Origin: Bradymonadia bacterium
GTDB taxonomy: Bacteria; Myxococcota_A; Bradymonadia; UBA7976; UBA1532
Length of the DNA: 64,000 nt
Assembly: GCA_046290225.1 (NCBI GenBank)
Contig: JBKAGE010000005.1
Coordinates: forward strand, 1-64,000
Reading direction: 5' to 3'
The notes beneath the pieces are model-generated. The model was not told the DNA's origin and did no database searches. It was given only the letters and a program-made list of their open reading frames with translations. This document shows, one piece after another, positions 24,703 to 39,010 of this stretch. Made by a program: the position numbers and the translations under genes. The stretch's first letter is position 1. Every line of letters begins with the position of its first letter.

Positions 24703-24844
24703 GGGTAAAGATTACAGTGCCAGTGGAGGGTTGTGTGTCGCAAACCGGTGAAGGAGACTTAAAGCATCGATCGCCACCATCCTCACCGGCCTGGCCCTGT
24801 GTCGGCATGTGCCGGCCTCATCGTGTAGAGCGAGCACCAAACCC

Positions 24845-25831
24845 ATGTGGACCTTCGACGAGCTCGATCCTCAAATCGACGACATCCGCGAGCGGATCCT
24901 GACCCACGGCAAGCGGCTCGGTGACTACTTCGTCAACCGCCGTGAGGAGATCGAACTCGCGGTGTTGTGCACAGCCGCTCAGGAGCCTCTGCTCTTCGTG
25001 GGGGCGCCAGGTACGGCGAAGAGCGATTTGGTGGTGAAGTTCGTGGAGAGTACGGGCCTCGACAAGGCGTCGTACTTCGAATACATGCTCACCAAGTTCA
25101 CCGAGCCCAGCGAGATCCTGGGGCCCATCGATCTCGAGCAGCTCAAGACCGGGCGATTCACCCGCCGGACTTCGGGCATGTTGCCCGAGGGCGTGGTGGT
25201 GTTCCTCGACGAGATCTTCAAGTCGAACAGCGCCATCTTGAACACCCTGCTCACCATCTTGAACGAGCGGAAGTTCTATCAAGACGGCGCCCCGACACCG
25301 GTGGCCCTGAAGATGCTCTTCGCCGCCACCAACGAGATCCCCGAGCAGACCGAGCTCGAAGCCCTCGCAGATCGCTTCGTCATCAAGATCGAGACGCTGC
25401 CGGTGAAGGACACGCACTTTGAGGCCCTCATCGAGGCGGGCATGCGCAACGAAGGCTGGAAGGCCACTGGTCAGCGTCCGTGGGTCGACGGCACGGCGAG
25501 CCTCGAGGATTACTTCAAGTTCAAGCGCTACATGGATCTGATGTTCTCCGGGGTGAACGGCGGCTCGGAGACCTTCGAGCGCTGGTTCCCGCGATCGCTC
25601 CGAGCGGAGTTCCGCCGCGTGATCCGAGCCCTCGAGGCGGAGGACAAGGTCTACATCAGCGATCGCAAAGTGGTGAAGCTCTACAAGCTCATCTGCACCC
25701 GGGCCTTCTTGTTCCACGGCGGCGCGGTCCAGCGAGACGATCTGCGCCTGCTCTGTTACGTGGGTAACAAGCGACACGAGCTCGCCCCAGTGGCGGCGAA
25801 GGTGAAGGCGCTCCTGGGCCTCGACGCCTGA
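24845..25831 (+). CDS. MoxR/RavA-like AAA+ ATPase
   Basis: Walker A GAPGTAKS, YFEYMLTKFTEPSEILGP, Walker B FLDEIFK, NSAILNTLL, ALADRF. Confidence 0.93.
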   Translation: MWTFDELDPQIDDIRERILTHGKRLGDYFVNRREEIELAVLCTAAQEPLLFVGAPGTAKSDLVVKFVESTGLDKASYFEYMLTKFTEPSEILGPIDLEQLKTGRFTRRTSGMLPEGVVVFLDEIFKSNSAILNTLLTILNERKFYQDGAPTPVALKMLFAATNEIPEQTELEALADRFVIKIETLPVKDTHFEALIEAGMRNEGWKATGQRPWVDGTASLEDYFKFKRYMDLMFSGVNGGSETFERWFPRSLRAEFRRVIRALEAEDKVYISDRKVVKLYKLICTRAFLFHGGAVQRDDLRLLCYVGNKRHELAPVAAKVKALLGLDA

Positions 25832-25834
25832 GTG

Positions 25835-27292
25835 ATGGCTGCTCTCGACGTCAACGGGCTGTTGCCCTCCATCACTGCTGGTGCCTGGCTTGTCGGTGTC
25901 GCGGTGCCTCCGCGAGAGGGGGTGCCCGAGGCGCTGTCGTGGTTGAGGGCGCGCTGGTCCGAGGGTGATGAGCACTTGCCCTTCACCCTGGTGCACGATC
26001 TCGGACACATGCTGTTGTTGGGTCCCCATGTGCGGCTGGGCTCGAGCAGTCATCTACCGCTGTGGCCCTCAGAAGAGCGGGCCGCCCGCCTCGCCTACGA
26101 AGATCGACTGCTTTCTCAATGGCTCATCGACCCAGGGGTCTATGTGGCCCATAGCGCCATCGCGGGGATGTCTCCAGAGTGGCGCCCCCAAGCGGTGTGT
26201 CACGCGCTGGGCCTCGCCCTGGCTCAGCCTCTGCGCGATCTCGAGGCGCTGCCCATGGGAAACGCGGCCCATGTGCGCAATCGCCATGACGTCCTCGTCG
26301 AAGGGCTGCCCGAAGGTTTCGAAGGCTGGCTTCAGCCCGATCAAACCCGGGTGCCTGATCCGGAGTGGGTGGGCTTCGTGGCCGACATCATCGAGGTGTG
26401 TGTCGAGGCCCTCTCAGGCCGCCCGCTGTTCTCCGAGACCGATCTGTGGGAGATCGCCCATCTGCCCGATCTGCCCAGTGATTCGGCCCGCCTGGCGCTG
26501 AGGCAACTGCACCGCGCTGCAGAGCGGGTGGGGCAGGCGGGGCCCTCGGTATCGGTGCACGTGCGCCGTCGAGCGCAAGAGGCCCCCGTCGACGACGACA
26601 GCGCCGACGAGTTTCCTGCTGGGGGCTTCGACGCCATCAGCCCCCGAGGGCGCATCGAGAACCTCGTACGCAGTGAGCTGGGCTACGCTGGAGAGGCGGT
26701 GGAGATCCCCGGAGGCCAGGTCGATTTGTTCGATCTGCGCTTCTTTCAGAGCGAGCTGCTGTATTACACCCGAGACGAGAGCCCGCTCTTCGACGCCCGA
26801 CGTCGTTTCACCTGTGTCATCGATCGTCCCAGCGCGCTGCGTCATAAGGTGCAGGGCCTGCCGGCACAAACCCTGGTGATGGTGCAGGGCTTCGCGATGG
26901 CGTTGCTCGCAGATTTGATTCGTCCCGGTATGTTGGGGCCTCAAGCGGTCTCGATGGACTGGTTCTGGGTCGAGGCCGATGCGGAAGACACAGCGGTGAT
27001 CGCCGAGGAGTCGCCTCTGATCCACCTGAGCCTCGCCGCCGACGTGGCGCACCACCGCGTGCGCTTCGACAGCATCGAGGGGGTGCATGACGAGCGCTTG
27101 CCGCGATGCCCGATGTTGGTTTTTTCCCCGTTGAGGCCTCCGAAGATCAAAAATCGAGCGGGATCCCGCCGCACACTCTGGATACAGGTGGGTGAGGCGA
27201 GCTGGCGTTTGGGCGATCGACATTGGGCGGTGAAGCGGCCTGAACAGATGAGGGCCCTGGCAGATGAGGTGCTCGTGGAGCTGATCGGTTGA
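25835..27292 (+). CDS. MoxR-associated partner protein (ViaA/vWA-like, divergent)
   Basis: Directly downstream of the MoxR gene; GGFDAISPRGRIENLVRSEL...FDLRFFQSELLYY resembles the pre-vWA motif of MoxR partners. Confidence 0.7.
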   Translation: MAALDVNGLLPSITAGAWLVGVAVPPREGVPEALSWLRARWSEGDEHLPFTLVHDLGHMLLLGPHVRLGSSSHLPLWPSEERAARLAYEDRLLSQWLIDPGVYVAHSAIAGMSPEWRPQAVCHALGLALAQPLRDLEALPMGNAAHVRNRHDVLVEGLPEGFEGWLQPDQTRVPDPEWVGFVADIIEVCVEALSGRPLFSETDLWEIAHLPDLPSDSARLALRQLHRAAERVGQAGPSVSVHVRRRAQEAPVDDDSADEFPAGGFDAISPRGRIENLVRSELGYAGEAVEIPGGQVDLFDLRFFQSELLYYTRDESPLFDARRRFTCVIDRPSALRHKVQGLPAQTLVMVQGFAMALLADLIRPGMLGPQAVSMDWFWVEADAEDTAVIAEESPLIHLSLAADVAHHRVRFDSIEGVHDERLPRCPMLVFSPLRPPKIKNRAGSRRTLWIQVGEASWRLGDRHWAVKRPEQMRALADEVLVELIG

Positions 27293-27948
27293 GTGAAGAG
27301 AAGCATTCAACGGCGAATGGAGCAGGTGACGGGGATCGCTGGTCGATCGAGCGCGTCGCCGCAGAGCCCGAGCACACGCGGCGACGGGCCGTGGAGGCCT
27401 GGCTGGCCCAGAGCCCGACCCGCACTGCCCTGAGCACCCTCGCCGAGGCCGAGGTCGACCCTGAGGTGTGCGAGATCGTACGTGATCATCTGGTCCAGCA
27501 GGGCGTCCGGGTGCCCTGGTCTGTGGTGGCGCCCTTCCTCAAGGGAGAGCCGTGTCGCAGCCCCTGGGCGGTGCTGGTGGAGCCTCGGGCTGGCGAGCCA
27601 CCGCCGTTGTGGTGGCTCATCGAGTCCGCTGCGGCCTCGAGGTCGTTGCCCTGGGGCTGGGGTCATTTCACCGCGGGTGATCGCTGGGGCGGGCTCTGGC
27701 ACGTGATGGGGGCGGCCCTCGATCAGGTGCCCAGCGGTGGTCTCGAAGCAAAAGAGGCCCACACGCTGAAGAAGCTGCGCAGCAAACTCGTGAAGTGGGC
27801 AGAACAGATCCACGACGAGGACGACAGCGTCGATGGCAGCTGGGACGGCAGCTGGGAGGCGGTGCCCGACAGCCTCGGCGGCCGCAGCCCCACGGTCTGG
27901 CTCGCCCTCGTCGACGACTTGCTCGGAGAAGGCCCTGATGCGACCTGA
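27289..27948 (+). CDS. hypothetical protein, third gene of the MoxR operon
   Basis: TTG start overlaps the upstream TGA; Trp-rich; no recognisable domain. Confidence 0.6.
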   Translation: MSEEKHSTANGAGDGDRWSIERVAAEPEHTRRRAVEAWLAQSPTRTALSTLAEAEVDPEVCEIVRDHLVQQGVRVPWSVVAPFLKGEPCRSPWAVLVEPRAGEPPPLWWLIESAAASRSLPWGWGHFTAGDRWGGLWHVMGAALDQVPSGGLEAKEAHTLKKLRSKLVKWAEQIHDEDDSVDGSWDGSWEAVPDSLGGRSPTVWLALVDDLLGEGPDAT

Positions 27949-27981: not shown

Positions 27982-28500
27982 ATGGACCCTGCTGTGACAG
28001 ATCTCTCCGTGATGACCAAGCTCGGCGTCTGGCTCGCCGTGGCCCTCCCCGTGGCGGTGGGCATGGAGCTGTGGGCCATGTTCCTGCACGGGAAGATCTG
28101 GCACACGTGGCTGTACGGGATCCACAAGTCGCACCACGAGCCGAAGACGGGCTACTTCGAACTCAACGACGTGTTCTCGGTGATCCACGCCCCCATCGCC
28201 ATGGCGATGATCCTCTATGGCTGCCTGGCGACCCCGGGGCTGACCCGCGAGCTTCTGTTCGGCTTCGGTCTGGGCATGACGATCTTCGGCATCGGCTACA
28301 TGGTGGTGCACGACGGCCTGGTGCACGGCCGGCTCCCGGTGACGTGGCTCACGCGTTGGGCGTACTTTCGCAAGGTGCGCAACGCCCACATCGTGCATCA
28401 CAAGAACGGCGGGGCGCCCTTCGGCATGTTCTTGGGGCCCCAGGAGCTGAAGTGGGCAAAGCGTAGGAGCGGACGATCCCGCCTGCGGCGCGATCTGTAG
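27982..28500 (+). CDS. crtZ: beta-carotene hydroxylase (fatty acid hydroxylase superfamily)
   Basis: His boxes HGKIWH, HKSHH, HDGLVH and HIVHH; FELND; GGAGG RBS. Confidence 0.88.
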   Translation: MDPAVTDLSVMTKLGVWLAVALPVAVGMELWAMFLHGKIWHTWLYGIHKSHHEPKTGYFELNDVFSVIHAPIAMAMILYGCLATPGLTRELLFGFGLGMTIFGIGYMVVHDGLVHGRLPVTWLTRWAYFRKVRNAHIVHHKNGGAPFGMFLGPQELKWAKRRSGRSRLRRDL

Positions 28501-28887
28501 CGGACGACCCAGCAAAAGCTTTCGCTTCGCTGCGTCTGTAGCGGACGCCTGCTTCGGCTTCGCCTTGCAGAGCTGTAGCGGACGCCGAGTCTGCCTTCGG
28601 CAGCCTGAGCTGTAGCTTTTTAAGAGAGTTGGGTGTGTCTTCCTGGCTTCCCCTGCCAGTCTGGGGCTTACGCCGAAAGTGCTTTGTAATGGGCCCAACG
28701 GGTTCGCGGTAGATGAGCCCAAGTCCCCCAAAGTGATCTTCAAAAAAGCTACAGGGAATTTGCCGGAGGCAAATGAGCGCCCGCTACAGCTCTGAGCCAG
28801 CGTAGCTGGTTCAGGCGTCCGCTACAGGCTGTCGCCATCAGGCGATGACCGTCCGCTACAGGCGGCCCAAAGGGCGGCCGTCCGCTC
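28467..28887. repeat. mirror-symmetric nested inverted-repeat array (REP/REPIN-like element or structured RNA)
   Basis: Left arm: GAGCGGACG at 28467; CTGTAGCGGACG at 28495, 28536 and 28573; CTGTAGCTTTTT at 28610. Right arm holds the reverse complements at 28743, 28778 (1 mismatch), 28816, 28850 and 28879. Confidence 0.9.
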
Positions 28888-29046: not shown

Positions 29047-30675
29047 ATGCGGATGAATCTCAAGACGCTGGGCACCCTCGCCCTCGCCGCGGGGGCTTGC
29101 CTGCTGTCGGCGTCCGGGGCGTGGGCCCAGGACGATGGCTCCGGAGAAGCCTGCGCGGACGTGGTGGAGATGAGCCCCACGCGCACGCTGAGGCAGTTGA
29201 GCCTCGATCTGTGGGGGCGGGTGCCCACGGCAGAGGAATATGCAGCCGTGGTGGATGCCGACTTCGACGACGAGGCGCTCGATGCCCTGGTAGGTGAGAT
29301 GCTCGACGCCCCGGAGTTCGAGAACTTCGTCAACCGCTACCACCTCGATTTGCTGTGGCCCAACATCCAGGGTCTCGAGCTGGTGAACGGTGGCATCGCC
29401 TATCTGCTGCCGGCCTCCTTTTACGAAGGAGGCATCAGCGGCGATTACACCACCGAGCGCATGTTCTCGCTGCTCACGGGCCTCTACGCCCGTGGGGGGC
29501 TGGTGCCGTGCGCCGACGAGCCCGCAGAGTTCGACGAGAATGGCGCGCCGGTGATGGAGCCCTGGCCCGACGGCACCATGCGCGAAGGGTATGTCTGGGT
29601 AGAGCCCTATTGGGCACCCGGCACCGAGGTGAAGGTGTGTGCCCTTGAGGCCCGCGAGGCCGCCGTGGGCAACAATGGCCTCGCCTGCAACACGCTCAAC
29701 GGCCTCGGCAGCGGTGGGTGCGGGTGCGGTCCGCAGCTGCAGCATTGCATGAGCATCGACGCCGCCAACATGATCCAGCCGTCGATCCGCGGTCAGATGA
29801 TGGCCATGGTGCAGGAGATCATTCAGTCAGATCGCCCCTACACCGACGTGCTCACCGACAAGGTGGAGATGATCAACGGTCCGCTGGTGCACTACTACCG
29901 GTATCTGGCTCAGATGGCCGTGGATCCGTTCATTCAGTCGCCTCAGGTGCTCATGGAAGATCTGCCCGAGCTCGAGTTCAACGACACCGAGTGGCAGGCC
30001 GTCGATCGTCCCGAGCCCCACGCCGGTGTGCTCACCAGCATGGCCTTCTTGCTGCGGTTCCAGACCAACCGGGCCCGGGCCAACCGGTTCTACACCGCCT
30101 TCTTGTGCGAGCCCTTCCAGGCGCCGCCCGATGGCTTGCCCAGCCCCAACGACGAGTGCAGTCAGGAGCCTGATCTGCGCAAGCGCTGCGGGTGCAACTA
30201 CTGTCACAGCGCCCTGGAGCCTGCTGCGGGGTACTGGGGACAGTTCGCCGAGGCGGGCACCTACTTGATGACACGTGACGAGTTCCCCATCTACTCCGCT
30301 CGATGTGCAGCCTGCGCCGAGACCGGCCAGTGCGACTTCATCTGCGAGCGCTTCTACGTGACCGAGGCGGGCCACCCCGACGAAGAGCCCTTCCTCGGGG
30401 TGCTCAAGTCGTACCAGTGGCGGGGGGAGACCGAGGCCAGCTACGTGGAGCAGGGCCCCTCGGGCCTCGTACAGCGTGCCCTCGACAACGGCCAGCTCGC
30501 GCGCTGCGCCGTGGACAACCTCTTCAACCGGCTCTATCGCCGGCCCATGACCGACGCCGAGCGTCGCGAGCGCTTGCCGGAGCTGGCCCAGGCCTTCATC
30601 GACAGCGACTACAGCTTCAAGGCGCTGGTCCGCAGCCTGGTCACTGACGCCGCGTACGGGAGGATGGCCCGATGA
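29047..30675 (+). CDS. secreted Cys-rich protein with a CxxCH motif (DUF1549/DUF1588/DUF1585-like)
   Basis: Signal peptide; LRQLSLDLWGRVPT; HAGVLT; CNYCH; C-terminal YSFKALVRSLV; first gene of the DUF1501 operon. Confidence 0.75.
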   Translation: MRMNLKTLGTLALAAGACLLSASGAWAQDDGSGEACADVVEMSPTRTLRQLSLDLWGRVPTAEEYAAVVDADFDDEALDALVGEMLDAPEFENFVNRYHLDLLWPNIQGLELVNGGIAYLLPASFYEGGISGDYTTERMFSLLTGLYARGGLVPCADEPAEFDENGAPVMEPWPDGTMREGYVWVEPYWAPGTEVKVCALEAREAAVGNNGLACNTLNGLGSGGCGCGPQLQHCMSIDAANMIQPSIRGQMMAMVQEIIQSDRPYTDVLTDKVEMINGPLVHYYRYLAQMAVDPFIQSPQVLMEDLPELEFNDTEWQAVDRPEPHAGVLTSMAFLLRFQTNRARANRFYTAFLCEPFQAPPDGLPSPNDECSQEPDLRKRCGCNYCHSALEPAAGYWGQFAEAGTYLMTRDEFPIYSARCAACAETGQCDFICERFYVTEAGHPDEEPFLGVLKSYQWRGETEASYVEQGPSGLVQRALDNGQLARCAVDNLFNRLYRRPMTDAERRERLPELAQAFIDSDYSFKALVRSLVTDAAYGRMAR

Positions 30676-34169: not shown

Positions 34170-37079
34170 TCAGGCTTTGATATGCACGATGCGGTGTCGG
34201 CCGGTCTCTGGGTCGAGTGACAGCAGCTGACCTTGGGGGCCCAGAGCGAGGATACGCTCTCTGAAGGCTCGGACACGAGGCACACCTTCACCCTCGAAGA
34301 TGAAGCGGGCCCGTGGTGACACCACACCATTGCAATAGATCTCAAGCTGGCTGCGGTCGTCTCGTCGAGGGTAGAGCCACCATTGACCCCCATGAAAGAG
34401 CGGGGTTTGCCAGGACGATGACGTGGACGATGTGTCTTCCAGATCGGGCCACATGGCTTCAGTGCCCGGGTGGGCAAACCGACGCCCGTCGGGGAAGATG
34501 GCGCACACCTTCTGTTTCTCGGACCAGGTGAGCGACATGCCCGTGCCTCGAACCGAGAGGGCACCCAGCTCATGACCCACGGTGTGACGCCGCCTCAGGG
34601 TCATGCTGGGGGTCTCGATCTGCCAGACCTGTGCGCTCTCACCATGCTCGACCCGCCATACGCACATGTTGGTGGTGCGGGCAAACCCCGTCACGATGCC
34701 TTCGCTCTCCACCTTCCACAGCGCAGTGAAGCGGTGCTCGAAGACATCGAGGGCCATGACCTGTGTGTCCGTGGCCACGAGCCATCGATCCCCGTCGAAG
34801 GTGTCGGCGAAGGCCTGTAGTTTGATCTCACCCCACGCCTCTGCAGCGCCGTCGATGATGTTCACTCGGGTCACGCGCCAGACATCCCCTCGGCGGGCGA
34901 GGGCCAGCAGGCGGGTGCGGTCGTCGGAGATGACCAGCACCTCGGCGGGGTGGGGCACACGGGTGTGTGGGCGCCCACTGCGATCTGTGAGCCAGAGGCC
35001 ACCTTCGCCCAGAGCGACCGCGAAACCATTGTCCAACAGCGCCACATCGACGGCGAGGGCGGTCCCACCCTCGTCACGGAAGGTGAGATGCAGAGGCATG
35101 CCCCCATTGGCAGGCAATAAGGGGTTCTTCGGGGTCGTGGGGATGGAGGCGCCCTGAAAGTCCACCTTGAAGATCGGATCGTGATTGCGCCGGGCGAGCT
35201 GCTTCAGGCTGCGTTGGCCCGTGCGTTGCGCGTGGGAAGGCAACAGTCGACGGATCAGCGCGCGGATGAGTGATTGCTCTCCAGGGCCTGCGTCTCGGAG
35301 ACCTGGAAAGCCCATGAGATCGCCGGAGCCGGTGAGGCCGTCGAGCAACGCAGAGAGCGTCTGATCCACGTCGGGATCATCCTCTGCCTCGGCCATCAGG
35401 GCCTCTACCCTCGCCCGCAGCGCCATGGAGGGCAGCGCGCGGCCATCAGAGAGTCGCCTGATCTGTATGCCCAGCATCGACGCGCCTTTGGCGCCGCCTT
35501 GCTCGATGAGCTGATCGATGCAGGTCTCCAAGACGCGCTTCAGCTCTACCTTGGGGGCCACCTTGAGCAGGGGCCAGCCCACCGCCACCGCGCGGCCGAG
35601 GGCGCCGGTGCGGGCGAGGTGCATGGCCCAGACACCACGCAACGCCCGGGCTTTGGCGGGGTGATCGCCTTCGAGCTGTTGCACCGCCTCTTCGAAGGCA
35701 CCGTGTCGACGGGCGAGCCAGATCACCCGCTCCACATCGCCGGCGAGCATCCACTGACGCATGATCAAGGGTGCCTTGAGCCCCCGGGCCTCGGCGAGCT
35801 GCGCCGCGAGGCGGAAGCGCTCGTGGCGTTCGAGGTAGGCCACGGCCTCTTCGCTCTCGCCGAGCAGCTCTGCCAGCACGAAGGCGGCGCGGTCGATCTC
35901 GCCCTGCTCGTCGAGGCGCTCGAAGGCCTGGCGATACATCTGGCGGATGCGGGCATAGCCCCCTCGGCCCATGTGCAGGCTCGAGCCGCCGCCTGAGGCC
36001 CGCTGCAGCGAGATCTGCAAATCATCTCGGCGGTCGGGCAGCCCCGGGGTCCAGCCCAAACCCTCGCCGCCTTCTCCTTTGCCGAGGGGGATCGCCCGAC
36101 GCAGGGCCTCGTCGAACTGGCCCCGATCGAACATCTCCACCATCTCGTTGAGGTAGTTCACCTGCTCGGCGAGGGCGCGGTTGCCCAGGCCCATCTTCAA
36201 CAGCCGCTGCATCAACCGGGCCTTGAGGCGCTCACCCGCCGAGGGTCCTCGGTCGGGCCCATCGGGCATCCACCGCTCGCCCTCGTCGGGCTTGGGGGTG
36301 CGTCGCATGTCGCCACCAAAGGCCCCGAGCAGCCGTGAAAGCCAGCCCTGTCGCCGATGTGGCACCGCCAGATCTGTGGTGTCGAAGGCCCCAGAGGAGG
36401 ACTCAGGTTGGGGCTTTGCAGGGGCAGAGCGCCCTTTGAAGAGCCCTCTCAACCAGCCACCAAGCCCGCGAGAAGGCGTATCAGGGAGAGGCTCGCCACT
36501 GAGAGCGCGCTCCACCTGAGCCCGTCGGGGATCAGCAGAGGGTATGGTGCCGCCGAAGAGGCCCCGTACTTCGGGCGGGGTCTCGATGATGACTTCTGGG
36601 GGCGGTGGAGGCAGGCCGAGGGGGCGCACCTCGACCAGACGGAACATCTCCACGTCGAGCCAGAGGCTGATGTCGAAGAGCGTCGCCTGGAGCCCCTCTG
36701 ACTGATCCTGCCCTCGAGGGACGCGCCACACGTGCAGTCGACCGCCCACAGCAAGAGCCAGCTGCCCGCGGCGGGCGATGGCGCCGTGCTCGGATTCGGG
36801 CAAGTCGACGGCGAGGGAGACACCCCGGCCACGGACCACCACGGCCCCGGGCGCCCCTCTCGCAGGCAGGCGCACGTGTCCCGGCCAGCTGAGCCACCAT
36901 CGGTTGCGATCAGCAGGCTCACCAGGGAGAGGGCTCAAGCGATAGAGGCGGGCCGAGGGCGACCACAAGGCCATCACCCGAGCGCGGACCGTTTCATGGT
37001 CGAGGAGGGCCTCGTCGAAGATCAGGCCGCAGGCTTCCGGGTGCCCGCGCAGGGGCTTGAAGATCATGGGGGTGCTCAT
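34170..37079 (-). CDS. bpX6-type component of a MoxR-vWA-beta-propeller ternary conflict system
   Basis: YLNEMVEMFDRG.FDEALRRAIPL and Y..AF..L...G.I..AAFVLAELL...EAV..LE.H..F.LAA.LAE helical core, followed by a beta-rich C-terminus. Family assignment is from recall. Confidence 0.72.
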   Translation of the reverse strand: MSTPMIFKPLRGHPEACGLIFDEALLDHETVRARVMALWSPSARLYRLSPLPGEPADRNRWWLSWPGHVRLPARGAPGAVVVRGRGVSLAVDLPESEHGAIARRGQLALAVGGRLHVWRVPRGQDQSEGLQATLFDISLWLDVEMFRLVEVRPLGLPPPPPEVIIETPPEVRGLFGGTIPSADPRRAQVERALSGEPLPDTPSRGLGGWLRGLFKGRSAPAKPQPESSSGAFDTTDLAVPHRRQGWLSRLLGAFGGDMRRTPKPDEGERWMPDGPDRGPSAGERLKARLMQRLLKMGLGNRALAEQVNYLNEMVEMFDRGQFDEALRRAIPLGKGEGGEGLGWTPGLPDRRDDLQISLQRASGGGSSLHMGRGGYARIRQMYRQAFERLDEQGEIDRAAFVLAELLGESEEAVAYLERHERFRLAAQLAEARGLKAPLIMRQWMLAGDVERVIWLARRHGAFEEAVQQLEGDHPAKARALRGVWAMHLARTGALGRAVAVGWPLLKVAPKVELKRVLETCIDQLIEQGGAKGASMLGIQIRRLSDGRALPSMALRARVEALMAEAEDDPDVDQTLSALLDGLTGSGDLMGFPGLRDAGPGEQSLIRALIRRLLPSHAQRTGQRSLKQLARRNHDPIFKVDFQGASIPTTPKNPLLPANGGMPLHLTFRDEGGTALAVDVALLDNGFAVALGEGGLWLTDRSGRPHTRVPHPAEVLVISDDRTRLLALARRGDVWRVTRVNIIDGAAEAWGEIKLQAFADTFDGDRWLVATDTQVMALDVFEHRFTALWKVESEGIVTGFARTTNMCVWRVEHGESAQVWQIETPSMTLRRRHTVGHELGALSVRGTGMSLTWSEKQKVCAIFPDGRRFAHPGTEAMWPDLEDTSSTSSSWQTPLFHGGQWWLYPRRDDRSQLEIYCNGVVSPRARFIFEGEGVPRVRAFRERILALGPQGQLLSLDPETGRHRIVHIKA

Positions 37080-39010
37080 GGGTGGGTGTCCCCCATGCGA
37101 TCGAGCAGCAAAGCGTCAGATCGACCGAGATCGATCACTTTCAGCCACCCCGAGCTGCTCCGCACGGCCACTCGGGGTGTCATCGAGTCTACGGCCACTT
37201 GGTCGATGGGCTCGTCGGTGAACTCGAGCAGAGGCACCCGGGTGGTGTTGCCCTCGGCGCTCAGGCGCCACAGCGCCCGCGCGTCGGTGGCCTCCGGGTG
37301 TACGAGCAGCGAGAGTGCGTACGAGCGCGTGTAGTCGGCGATGACCCCGACGACACGGTGCTCCGGATCCACGTGAATGGGCACCACCGCAGAAGGCCTG
37401 GCGCGGCCAGGATCACCCTTCACCATGTCCTCCCAGCTGCGGCGAGGGCGTACGAGCAGCCATTGAGATGCGGCGCTGCGCACCGCCACAGTGGGGTGTC
37501 CGTGGCGGTGAGGGTTGCCCACGAAGACCACCGGGTCTGGATCGACCTCGAAGGTCAATGGCACCAGCGCGTTGCGGGGGTTGGTGCCCACGCTGTGCAC
37601 CTTGATCTCCGACTCGGTGGGGGCGCTCACCACGACGAAGCCGTCTTCGATGCTCTCGGCGGCGATGACCGAGTGGGCGGCGAGGGTGCACTCGGGGTCC
37701 GGGCCGCTCTGCAATAGATAGAGGCGCCCCTCACCATCGAGGACGGCCGCCCGAGAAGGCCACCGGCCCAGCATGACCAGAGGCAGAGGCTCTTGGGGTG
37801 AGACCCAATCCTCTGGCAGAGGCCATTGTTGTTGTGCCTGGCCTTTCCACCAGAGCGTCAACCAGTCGGCGTCTGCGGTGACCGCTGTGTACGAGCGACC
37901 CTGGAACCCCACCGCCACCACTTTGCCTTCGACGTGCTCGGGGAACTGGCGGGTACGGCCGTGAGGGCGCGCATGAGGTGAGTTGGGGACGTGCCACGCC
38001 AATGGTCGCCAGCCCTCGGTCTGCCAGCCCGGCGATTTGTCTGCGGGTACCCACCCCAGAAGGCGGGTCCCCACGAACCTCAGCCGGCTCAGATTGGGAG
38101 ATTGGACCCGGCCAGGCAGCGTCAACGTCTGCCGGCGCTGCGCCTCCAAACCGGCGAACGGGTCACGCAACAATCGTGCGCCCTGACCGCGCTCTATGCC
38201 CGGCAGTGTCAACGTGAGGGCCGGTGCGCCGGGCCTGAGTATGCGCACGGGCAGATCGGGGGTCTCGTCAGAGGGCTCGGCCCATAAGGGCGTCTCGATG
38301 ATCAGGCGAGAGAGCTGATCGGTGAGCTGGGGGTGCCGGCAGAGCTGTCGCCCGCCCTGGGGGCCGCCCACCCACCACAGCGTCTCGATCTCGGCCTCGA
38401 CGCACTGGTCCAGCCACGCTTCGAGGGCTGTGTCGTCCACGGGCAGGGCCCCCCGGGCGTCGAGCCAGCAGCGGATGCCCTCCGGATCGAGCCCGATCCA
38501 AGGCCCTTGATCGAGACGCTGCGCCACCACCCATCTGATCTCGCCGCCCTGGGCTGCGCAACGCTGAGCCAGGACCACCAGCGCGGCGAGCTGGGCCAGC
38601 CGTGGAGCTCCGAGTACCTCGGGCCCCGCATCGACGATGACACCCAGGTGGCCCGCCCCCAGAGGATGACTGCGGGCCAGGGCCAGGAAGGCGTGCTCTC
38701 CCATGGCTGCCCGACGGTCGAATTCCATGGGGGCCTCTTCCGCGAGCAGCCACTCGCTCAGGAGCAGCCGATCATATGGCCCGGTGCCGCTGAGGCCTTC
38801 GTATCCATCAGGCTCGCTCTGTGCCGGATCAGGCGCCCGCTGGGCGATGGGCCCGATGCCCGCTTGCAGCCGACCGAGCCAGGGCCCCAGCAACATCGCT
38901 ACGTGATGGGGGAACGCCGCCAGCGCTTCAGCCCATGGCTGGAGCGACGGAGGCAGATCAGGAGATGAATGTGATGTCGGAGGCGCGCCCATAGGGCGAA
39001 TGTGACACAA
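37076..39010 (-). CDS. divergent vWA-like plus beta-propeller-like protein of a bpX-type system
   Basis: PDGYEGL..TGPYDRLLLSEWLLA...F.RRA..GE..FL and DAGP..LGAPRLAQLAAL motifs; translationally coupled to the bpX6-type gene. Confidence 0.68.
   Translation of the reverse strand: MCHIRPMGAPPTSHSSPDLPPSLQPWAEALAAFPHHVAMLLGPWLGRLQAGIGPIAQRAPDPAQSEPDGYEGLSGTGPYDRLLLSEWLLAEEAPMEFDRRAAMGEHAFLALARSHPLGAGHLGVIVDAGPEVLGAPRLAQLAALVVLAQRCAAQGGEIRWVVAQRLDQGPWIGLDPEGIRCWLDARGALPVDDTALEAWLDQCVEAEIETLWWVGGPQGGRQLCRHPQLTDQLSRLIIETPLWAEPSDETPDLPVRILRPGAPALTLTLPGIERGQGARLLRDPFAGLEAQRRQTLTLPGRVQSPNLSRLRFVGTRLLGWVPADKSPGWQTEGWRPLAWHVPNSPHARPHGRTRQFPEHVEGKVVAVGFQGRSYTAVTADADWLTLWWKGQAQQQWPLPEDWVSPQEPLPLVMLGRWPSRAAVLDGEGRLYLLQSGPDPECTLAAHSVIAAESIEDGFVVVSAPTESEIKVHSVGTNPRNALVPLTFEVDPDPVVFVGNPHRHGHPTVAVRSAASQWLLVRPRRSWEDMVKGDPGRARPSAVVPIHVDPEHRVVGVIADYTRSYALSLLVHPEATDARALWRLSAEGNTTRVPLLEFTDEPIDQVAVDSMTPRVAVRSSSGWLKVIDLGRSDALLLDRMGDTHP

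What the first reader, a model, noticed from the sequence alone, without database searches (positions are those of the whole stretch)
28467..28887. ~420-bp mirror-image element: five nested inverted-repeat pairs with unique hairpin spacers around a structured core
Seen: the left arm has GAGCGGACG (28467), three exact CTGTAGCGGACG (28495, 28536, 28573) and CTGTAGCTTTTT (28610), spaced about 31-41 nt apart. The right arm carries their reverse complements in mirror order (28743, 28778, 28816, 28850, 28879). Some partners are matched individually: copy 2 pairs over 15 bp including its flank, copy 3 shares a GAG/CTC flank, and the T-tract copy faces the A-tract copy. The spacers differ in sequence but each can fold locally, some imperfectly (CTGC-CTTCGG-GCAG-like at 28591, ATTTGCC-GGA-GGCAAAT, CTGAGCCAGC-GTA-GCTGGTTCAG, GTCGCC-ATCA-GGCGAT, GCCC-AAA-GGGC). 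As a single strand this would form a long rod with side hairpins at each junction. Known: GTAG is the 5' motif of REP sequences handled by RAYT (TnpA-REP) HUH nucleases, and inverted REP pairs form REPINs. Inference: an unusually elaborate nested REPIN/MITE or an undescribed structured RNA. No transposase lies next to it.
Basis: partly seen in the sequence, partly recalled or inferred. Interest (0 to 1): 0.85.

Follow-up and report, generated by a model that had tools for sequence, protein, structure and literature searches.

The report
Mirror repeat built from swappable hairpins
This 421-base mirror-image stretch is one of about 30 scattered copies of a non-coding repeat whose arms are put together from an interchangeable kit of small DNA hairpins; it probably spreads as folded single-stranded DNA, by an enzyme that is not yet identified.

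Summary
The mirror element is real (28467-28887) but not unique: the genome holds 27 full copies, 14 mini forms and half copies, at gene 3' ends (16 of 27 between convergent genes), with no target duplication. Each arm is constant 12-mer joints plus four hairpin modules from a shared library; all 27 copies differ, and left and right arms are not matched within a copy. On each strand the 3' arm carries C-GNA-G / C-GNNA-G caps, compensatory stem changes and a conserved G:G mismatch, which favours folding as single-stranded DNA. The core shows no conserved fold. A sister family B (36 full copies, different arms) shares the core, and one A/B chimera exists. One B copy and one copy of a third mirror family hold a four-helix-bundle (23S-IVP) gene instead of a core. 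No RAYT/Y1 gene is in this 99%-complete genome; no relatives were found elsewhere. Verdict: a REPIN-like non-autonomous element, not a REPIN by definition; mobiliser unknown, four-helix-bundle cassettes the leading candidate. The scan earlier noted such cassettes and GNA polarity on other DNA.

The parts
27982..28500 (+).
   Evidence: PF04116 E=1e-11; overlap 34 nt; removing the element gives a stop two codons later
28467..28887 (.). Family-A mirror element, 421 bp, one of 27 full copies
28467..28475 (+). Left terminal joint (9-mer)
28476..28494 (-). Left outer hairpin module (GCA loop and G:G mismatch when read on the minus strand)
28495..28506 (+). Constant 12-mer joint
28507..28535 (-). Left second module (29-nt type, 12 identical copies in the genome)
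28536..28547 (+). Constant 12-mer joint
28548..28572 (-). Left third module (class b)
28573..28584 (+). Constant 12-mer joint
28585..28609 (-). Left inner module (class cA, GAA loop on the minus strand)
28610..28621 (+). Left inner joint with T tract
   Evidence: I12
28622..28742 (.). Asymmetric core, about 81% identical between copies, homologous to the family-B core, no conserved fold, mosaic
28743..28754 (-). Right inner joint with A tract
   Evidence: I12
28755..28777 (+). Right inner module (class cB, GGA loop)
28778..28789 (-). 12-mer joint, one mismatch
28790..28815 (+). Right third module (class b, GTA loop)
28816..28827 (-). Constant 12-mer joint
28828..28849 (+). Right second module (4-nt loop)
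28850..28861 (-). Constant 12-mer joint
28862..28878 (+). Right outer module (AAA loop, G:G mismatch)
28879..28887 (-). Right terminal joint (9-mer)
29047..30675 (+). Downstream host gene (DUF1549/DUF1592-type domains); not a transposase

Best explanation
A species-specific, non-coding, non-autonomous mobile DNA family that works like a REPIN. SHOWN: dispersed copies with sharp common ends, placed at gene 3' ends without target duplication; arms made of constant joints and exchangeable hairpin modules; selection on hairpin shape with strand polarity; recombination among copies. INFERRED: when a strand is exposed (lagging strand, or an excised intermediate) it folds into a panhandle whose joints pair across the arms while the 3' arm presents four GNA/GNNA-capped hairpins with a G:G mismatch to a protein; the folded strand is cut out and rejoined at a new site near a stop codon; template switching at the 12-mer joints swaps, adds or deletes modules and yields the 20-80 bp mini forms. 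GUESSED: the protein partner. The leading candidate (about 0.35) is the four-helix-bundle (PF05635/TIGR02436) cassette system, of which A and B would be gene-less derivatives, with a host enzyme doing the chemistry; a lost Y1/RAYT enzyme is close behind.
For: 197 exact 12-mers against 0.6 expected; 27 full copies, all arms distinct; 16 of 27 between convergent genes against 878 of 5110 gene pairs (own gene caller); no duplication in 18 of 18 copies tested. Loops: 186 GNA + 37 AAA of 230 triloops, 48 GNNA of 52 tetraloops; minimal mini-hairpin motif 185 on the 3'-arm strand against 39 on the other in 27 A copies, 382 against 27 in 36 B copies. Of 107 outer-type modules 67 close G-C and 40 A-T, none mismatched; G:G at position 3 in 104. 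GCGNAGC/GCGNNAGC is a DNA-specific stable fold (PMC13037366, passages). Four-gamete conflicts rise with distance, 44/62/82%. In sister families the two ends of one copy are copied from each other (B: 11 of 36 against 6 of 1260; C: 10 of 32 against 1.5 expected), as a panhandle intermediate predicts. Both PF05635 genes of the genome lie between mirror arms; 39 of 78 related genes elsewhere have mirror arms against 2 of 146 controls; one (L195) has arms of joint-plus-GNNA-hairpin units with the same polarity.
Against: No movement, empty site or excised form was seen (no contig spans the site). No family-A copy holds a gene; the link to the four-helix-bundle gene runs through family B, one copy of 37, and that gene is frameshifted; it could be a passenger. 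The core shows no similarity to that gene. GNA polarity is not general around four-helix-bundle genes (79 against 77 motifs in 80 loci). The protein has no known catalytic activity (PMC4990558 passages: function unknown). Within-copy end copying is absent in family A itself. Exact removal restores a near stop in only 4 of 10 genes that overlap a copy. 38 of 52 tetraloops are also GNRA, which RNA favours too.
Confidence: 0.6

Rival explanations
1. An orphaned REPIN/TIR family: spread by a Y1 (RAYT or TIRYT) HUH enzyme that this lineage has lost; the four-helix-bundle genes are passengers.
For: GTAG in every joint; imperfect hairpins with a conserved mismatch; extragenic, 3' and convergent placement; no two copies alike; mini forms match the 'a-palindrome-a complement' excision products of REPINs (PMC3337134 passages). 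REP families without their transposase gene and long TIR families are described (PMC3733652 passages). 12 of 31 genomes of the order carry Y1 genes.
Against: No Y1 in G000 (control rang in 6 of 14). Canonical REPs have the tetranucleotide at, or 1-2 nt from, the hairpin foot (PMC6006769 section 12); here it is 6 nt away and on the strand with C:C mismatches and TNC loops. None of 30 Y1 loci from relatives resembles A, B or C arms (best E 0.12). B and C arms lack the A joint.
Confidence: 0.25
2. A host-serving RNA 3'-end element: the rod forms in read-through transcripts, ends or stabilises them or is cut by RNase III like an rRNA intervening sequence, and spreads by gene conversion.
For: Copies start 0-15 nt after stop codons in most cases; either strand gives a -244 kcal/mol rod; T tracts face inward in both arms; four-helix-bundle IVS stems are RNase III substrates (PMC4990558 passages); a piece occurs in contigs of an RNA run (not proof of transcription).
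Against: 230 of 282 loops are triloops whose stems are out of register for UUCG or GNRA; the T tract lies 13 nt from the nearest stem and only a weak terminator-like hit was found; family B has an A tract there; no core covariation; it does not explain dispersal.
Confidence: 0.12
3. A classical MITE of a DDE transposon with repeated transposase-binding sites in its ends (Tn7/IS21 style; recalled).
For: Repeated inverted motifs in both ends; flanking base often T (22 of 36 ends), giving TG...CA in some copies.
Against: No target duplication in 18 of 18; terminal TG not fixed; no rve-type transposase; hairpin selection between the repeats is unexplained.
Confidence: 0.03

Closest known systems
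REPINs / BIMEs moved by RAYT (TnpA-REP) (PMC3337134, PMC3733652, PMC6006769)
   Same: Extragenic multicopy palindromes at gene 3' ends, inverted arrangement, imperfect hairpins with a fixed mismatch, GTAG word, every copy different, central-deletion mini forms.
   Different: Four different hairpin classes per arm in fixed order, drawn from a library; GTAG 6 nt from the stem and on the weaker strand; 120-135 bp asymmetric core shared by two families with unrelated arms; no Y1 gene in the genome.
TIRtrons / TIR repeat families and CGTC-tagged REPs (PMC3733652)
   Same: Long inverted arms, partly self-complementary; CGTC word next to the hairpin on the 3'-arm strand; CGTC repeats also lack a known transposase.
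   Different: CGTC follows the hairpin here; stems, loops and array plan do not fit the four CGTC families as described in the text read (figures not seen); no tyrosine transposase between arms.
ORF-bearing 23S rRNA intervening sequences with S23p / four-helix-bundle protein (PMC4990558)
   Same: Small PF05635 gene in the loop of a long inverted repeat with repeated units (families B and C of this genome).
   Different: Outside rRNA genes; arms of 180-320 bp made of hairpin modules; almost all copies carry a non-coding core in place of the gene; family A has no gene-bearing copy.
DGR target hairpin (PMC3240598)
   Same: GC-rich DNA hairpin whose stem sequence is free but whose GRNA loop matters; the DGR accessory protein Avd is a four-helix bundle (recalled).
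   Different: No DGR reverse transcriptase, template or variable repeat; variation in the cores is not adenine-specific.
Bacterial MITEs (NEMIS/Correia, RUP, ERIC)
   Same: Non-coding, inverted ends, dozens of copies near genes.
   Different: No target duplication; modular arms; no cognate transposase found.

Membership tests
REP/REPIN (RAYT) | 5' GT[AG]G at, or 1-2 nt from, the foot of the hairpin | tested here: not met
   GTAG is followed by 6 constant bases before each module and lies on the strand with TNC loops and C:C mismatches; criterion from PMC6006769 section 12
REP/REPIN (RAYT) | Cognate Y1/RAYT gene flanked by the same repeats | tested here: not met
   0 PF01797 matches in G000, 99.4% complete; 30 Y1 loci of relatives carry no such arms
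REP/REPIN (RAYT) | Multicopy, extragenic, inverted pairs able to form a hairpin | tested here: met
REP/REPIN (RAYT) | Excision or cleavage by the enzyme | not testable with these tools
   only low-depth contigs were available
MITE of a DDE transposon | Target-site duplication | tested here: not met
   longest shared flank 0-1 nt in 18 of 18 copies
MITE of a DDE transposon | Terminal inverted repeats | tested here: met
   9-bp ends plus mirror arms
MITE of a DDE transposon | Autonomous element with the same ends | tested here: not met
   inverted-repeat survey and repeat survey found none; rve 0, IS110 0; not every transposase family was scanned
Four-helix-bundle (IVS-type) hairpin cassette | PF05635/TIGR02436 gene between mirror arms | tested here: inconclusive
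   met for one family-B copy (frameshifted) and one family-C copy (intact); not met for any family-A copy; A is tied to B by core homology and a chimera
Four-helix-bundle (IVS-type) hairpin cassette | Arms of 6-8-nt tandem words (the usual form) | tested here: not met
   A and B units are 26-41 nt joint-plus-hairpin units; only family C has hexamer runs
Structured RNA family (Rfam) | Match to a curated model | tested here: not met
   best E 2.9 and 0.57, far below gathering scores
Structured RNA family (Rfam) | Covarying conserved fold of the core | tested here: not met
   3 pairs, 0 compensatory (A+B); 19 pairs, 2 with one double change (A)
Diversity-generating retroelement | Adenine-specific variation and a DGR reverse transcriptase | tested here: not met
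   variability alike at A, C, G, T columns; the only two RT genes look retron-like (type judged from sequence and recall)

The most novel reading that the evidence does not exclude
Families A and B are gene-less derivatives of four-helix-bundle (IVS/Avd-like) cassettes and define a transposase-free class of mobile DNA in which a single-stranded panhandle displays a combinatorial code of GNA-capped hairpins; arms and cores are exchanged between families as modules, and one pentameric four-helix-bundle protein left in the genome drives some 100+ such elements in trans.
Probability: 0.3. Interest if true: 0.82.

Novelty: new variant of a known kind. Interest (0 to 1): 0.62.

Why it matters
How REP-like repeats without a RAYT spread, and what the very common four-helix-bundle/23S-IVP proteins do, are both open. 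This genome gives a natural mutagenesis set: 273 modules in 90 variants show which hairpin features are kept (C-G closing pair, G..A cap, G:G mismatch, junction bases) and which are free. With an intact four-helix-bundle gene in the same genome, binding and mobility can be tested directly. If the element is only an orphan REPIN-like family, it remains an unusually clear case of modular mosaic evolution in a bacterial repeat.

Tried and rejected
Rfam: nothing. Relatives: 0 of 60 genomes by DNA; core model 1 of 112 other genomes, E 8e-4, inside coding DNA, judged chance. Paired 12-mer scans gave 7 genome, 1 viral and 9 metagenome hits, all unrelated tandem repeats on inspection; a B-arm 18-mer gave 11 chance hits. 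Candidate enzymes not found in G000: Y1 (11), IS110 (53), rve (108), PD-(D/E)XK_3 (82), DUF559 (83); the Y2 search is uninformative (control silent); GIY-YIG only in one 625-aa frame (52); 8 tyrosine-recombinase matches were not followed (107). Retron link: two RT genes flank a mini B copy, but the core profiles do not hit that locus. Core as peptide gene: period-3 signal p=0.008 alone but 0.26 over all periods, start and frame not kept. Ten-base periodicity: p 0.64, 0.92, 0.21. Copy-specific left/right pairing in A: not above shuffles. Replacement of native terminators: not needed, convergent gaps have a median of 19 bp. A/B core against C core: no hit. Reads: four runs, contigs only; X2 covers only the host gene; one X3 contig ends in a flank not found beside a copy in G000, one contig at depth 2.9, too weak to call a new insertion. 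sigma-70 promoter scan: none. PMC10910872 and PMC8700078 passages were irrelevant.

Full report
Observation. The ten motifs lie as described between 28467 and 28887; six 12-mer matches occur in the window against 0.36 expected, and the stretch folds far better than shuffles as RNA (z -9.6) and as DNA on either strand (z -8.7, -9.1). It starts inside the last 34 nt of a fatty-acid-hydroxylase-family ORF (27982-28500) and ends 159 nt before a DUF1549/DUF1592-type gene. Removing exactly 28467-28887 lets the upstream gene stop two codons later, which fits a blunt insertion; the same test gave a stop within two codons in 4 of 10 genes that overlap a copy and not in the other 6. Rfam has no match.

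It is a family. The genome (8.6 Mb, 83 contigs, 99.4% complete) holds 197 exact 12-mers against 0.6 expected from a third-order model. They form 27 copies with both arms and core, one more with a 160-bp MITE in its core, 14 mini forms of 20-78 bp made of the two terminal joints around zero to two modules, and half copies (part of that output was cut from view). With my own gene caller, 16 of 27 copies lie between convergent genes against 878 of 5110 neighbouring pairs, mostly within 15 nt of stop codons. No target duplication was seen in the 18 copies with both exact ends (9 copies with altered ends were left out). Pieces with the same modules occur in contigs of three other public runs, so it is not an assembly artefact. 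No copy was found in 60 relatives by DNA or, convincingly, in 112 genomes of the class by a core model, nor in the three contig collections.

Anatomy of the arms. Between the joints lie 273 modules of 90 distinct sequences that fall into about 15 stem types. Order is fixed by the bases next to the joint: an inner class, a third-position class, and two outer positions that share one class. All 27 left arms and all 27 right arms differ. In the 19 copies with four modules per arm, left and right classes agree no more than in shuffles (p 0.46-1.0), and none of 15 position pairs is associated at p<0.05 (lowest 0.058; low power). So the 'individually matched partners' are class-specific junctions, and the 'unique' spacers are shared parts. 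In 25 cores (two coreless and two divergent rows dropped) four-gamete conflicts rise from 44% of 39 close site pairs to 82% of 397 distant ones: copies recombine.

DNA or RNA. Read on the strand where an arm is 3', 186 of 230 triloops are GNA and 37 AAA; 48 of 52 tetraloops are GNNA, 38 of them GNRA; 9 modules fitted no class. The minimal mini-hairpin motif occurs 185 times on that strand and 39 on the other. Among 107 outer-type modules the closing pair is G-C in 67 and A-T in 40 with no mismatch, and a G:G mismatch is kept in 104. GCGNAGC and GCGNNAGC are exceptionally stable as DNA and much less so as RNA, and occur at single-strand origins (PMC13037366, passages); that AAA and GAG loops fold alike is recalled. 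On the opposite strand the stems are out of register for a UUCG loop (read from the sequence). I therefore favour single-stranded DNA, without proof. The core has conserved boxes but no supported fold, no coding signal and no helical periodicity.

Sister families. A profile of A cores alone found a second family B, and a B profile finds A cores. B has 36 full copies of about 500 bp among 56 regions, unrelated arm sequences but the same plan and polarity (382 against 27), and the same placement (17 of 36 convergent). A chimera joins a B arm to an A arm around one core at C82:48290-48800. A third mirror family C has hexamer runs and a 216-bp core (70 arm starts, 36 paired). In B the flanks outside the arms are perfectly mirrored for 20 nt or more in 11 of 36 copies against 6 of 1260 cross-copy pairs, and the outermost module is identical in 13 of 35 against 5.8; in C ends match in 10 of 32 against 1.5. 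One end is thus copied from the other, as a panhandle intermediate would allow (analogy to viral terminal repeats recalled). Family A shows no such signal.

Looking for the mover. No Y1/RAYT, IS110, rve, PD-(D/E)XK_3 or DUF559 gene was found; Y2 was uninformative. Y1 genes occur in 12 of 31 genomes of the order, but 30 fetched loci carry no similar arms. What the arms do enclose, twice, is a four-helix-bundle gene: both PF05635 matches of the genome sit in mirror elements, one frameshifted in place of the core of a B copy (C77:107011-107853), one intact in a C copy (C72:82266-83361), both about 51% GC in a 64% genome. Of 78 related genes from other genomes (80 kept of 95; 2 lacked flanks) 39 have mirror arms against 2 of 146 control window pairs. 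Most such arms are 6-8-nt tandem words, and GNA polarity is not general there, but one Gemmatimonadales locus (L195) has arms of joint-plus-GNNA-hairpin units with the same polarity. This family is known from 23S rRNA intervening sequences, where its function is unknown (PMC4990558, passages); a GRNA-capped DNA hairpin is needed by DGRs (PMC3240598, passages), whose Avd protein has this fold (recalled). The link is suggestive: no A copy holds a gene and the protein has no known chemistry.

Comparison. The element works like a REPIN (PMC3337134, passages; PMC3733652, parts 1-2 of 8 and passages; PMC6006769, abstract and section 12) but fails two defining tests, and fails the MITE test. Searches for a printed description found none for this plan or for four-helix-bundle genes with inverted arms outside rRNA; the library lacks most subscription papers, figures were not visible and no supplements were opened. 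Earlier AI notes of this scan describe four-helix-bundle hairpin cassettes in many genomes and GNA polarity in another two-armed repeat; I reached both points before those look-ups and tested them here.

Verdict. Real, multicopy, modular; new variant of a known kind; interest 0.62. Best reading 0.6; RAYT orphan 0.25; RNA element 0.12; DDE MITE 0.03.

Noticed in passing
G000 C41:18513-19131 (L067) and 35 more: Family B: about 500-bp mirror elements with different arms, the same core and copy-specific mirrored outer flanks.
   Followed up: yes
G000 C72:82266-83361 (L039), C1:38643-39190 (L062): Family C: mirror elements with hexamer runs and a 216-bp variable core; one copy holds an intact four-helix-bundle gene; some carry tandem 100-bp hairpin units.
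   Followed up: partly
G000 C77:107011-107853 (L040): Family-B arms around a frameshifted four-helix-bundle gene.
   Followed up: yes
G000 C82:48290-48800 (L041): A/B chimera: one arm of each family around a divergent core.
   Followed up: partly
G000 C78:372750-372900 and C34:360950-361130: A roughly 160-bp palindromic MITE inserted in the core of an A copy and of a B copy; 162 matches to its end motif in the genome.
   Followed up: partly
G000 C79:177700-181450 (L064, L065): Two convergent retron-like reverse transcriptase genes (540 and 453 aa), one preceded by a region with long inverted ends, with a mini B copy between them.
   Followed up: partly
G000 C50:55530-57157 (L054): A transposase gene (IS4-like by recall, about 390 aa) inserted in a family-C core.
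   Followed up: no
G000 C35:39977, C35:142914, C64:11624: Three related TnpB-like genes (judged by sequence, not scanned) although the genome has no IS200-type TnpA.
   Followed up: no
G000, many contigs: Further 140-170 bp palindromic repeat families, some paired around host genes (e.g. C36:153145-154952); this genome is unusually rich in hairpin repeats.
   Followed up: no
L195 and L181 (Gemmatimonadales/Gemmatimonadaceae records): Four-helix-bundle gene between mirror arrays of joint-plus-GNNA mini-hairpin units, at a shared site upstream of a ribosomal-protein-like gene.
   Followed up: partly
window 24809-27948 and 34170-39010: MoxR AAA and vWA genes of ternary-system type (bpMoxR, ivWA domains); the minus-strand genes at 34170-39010 were not scanned.
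   Followed up: no
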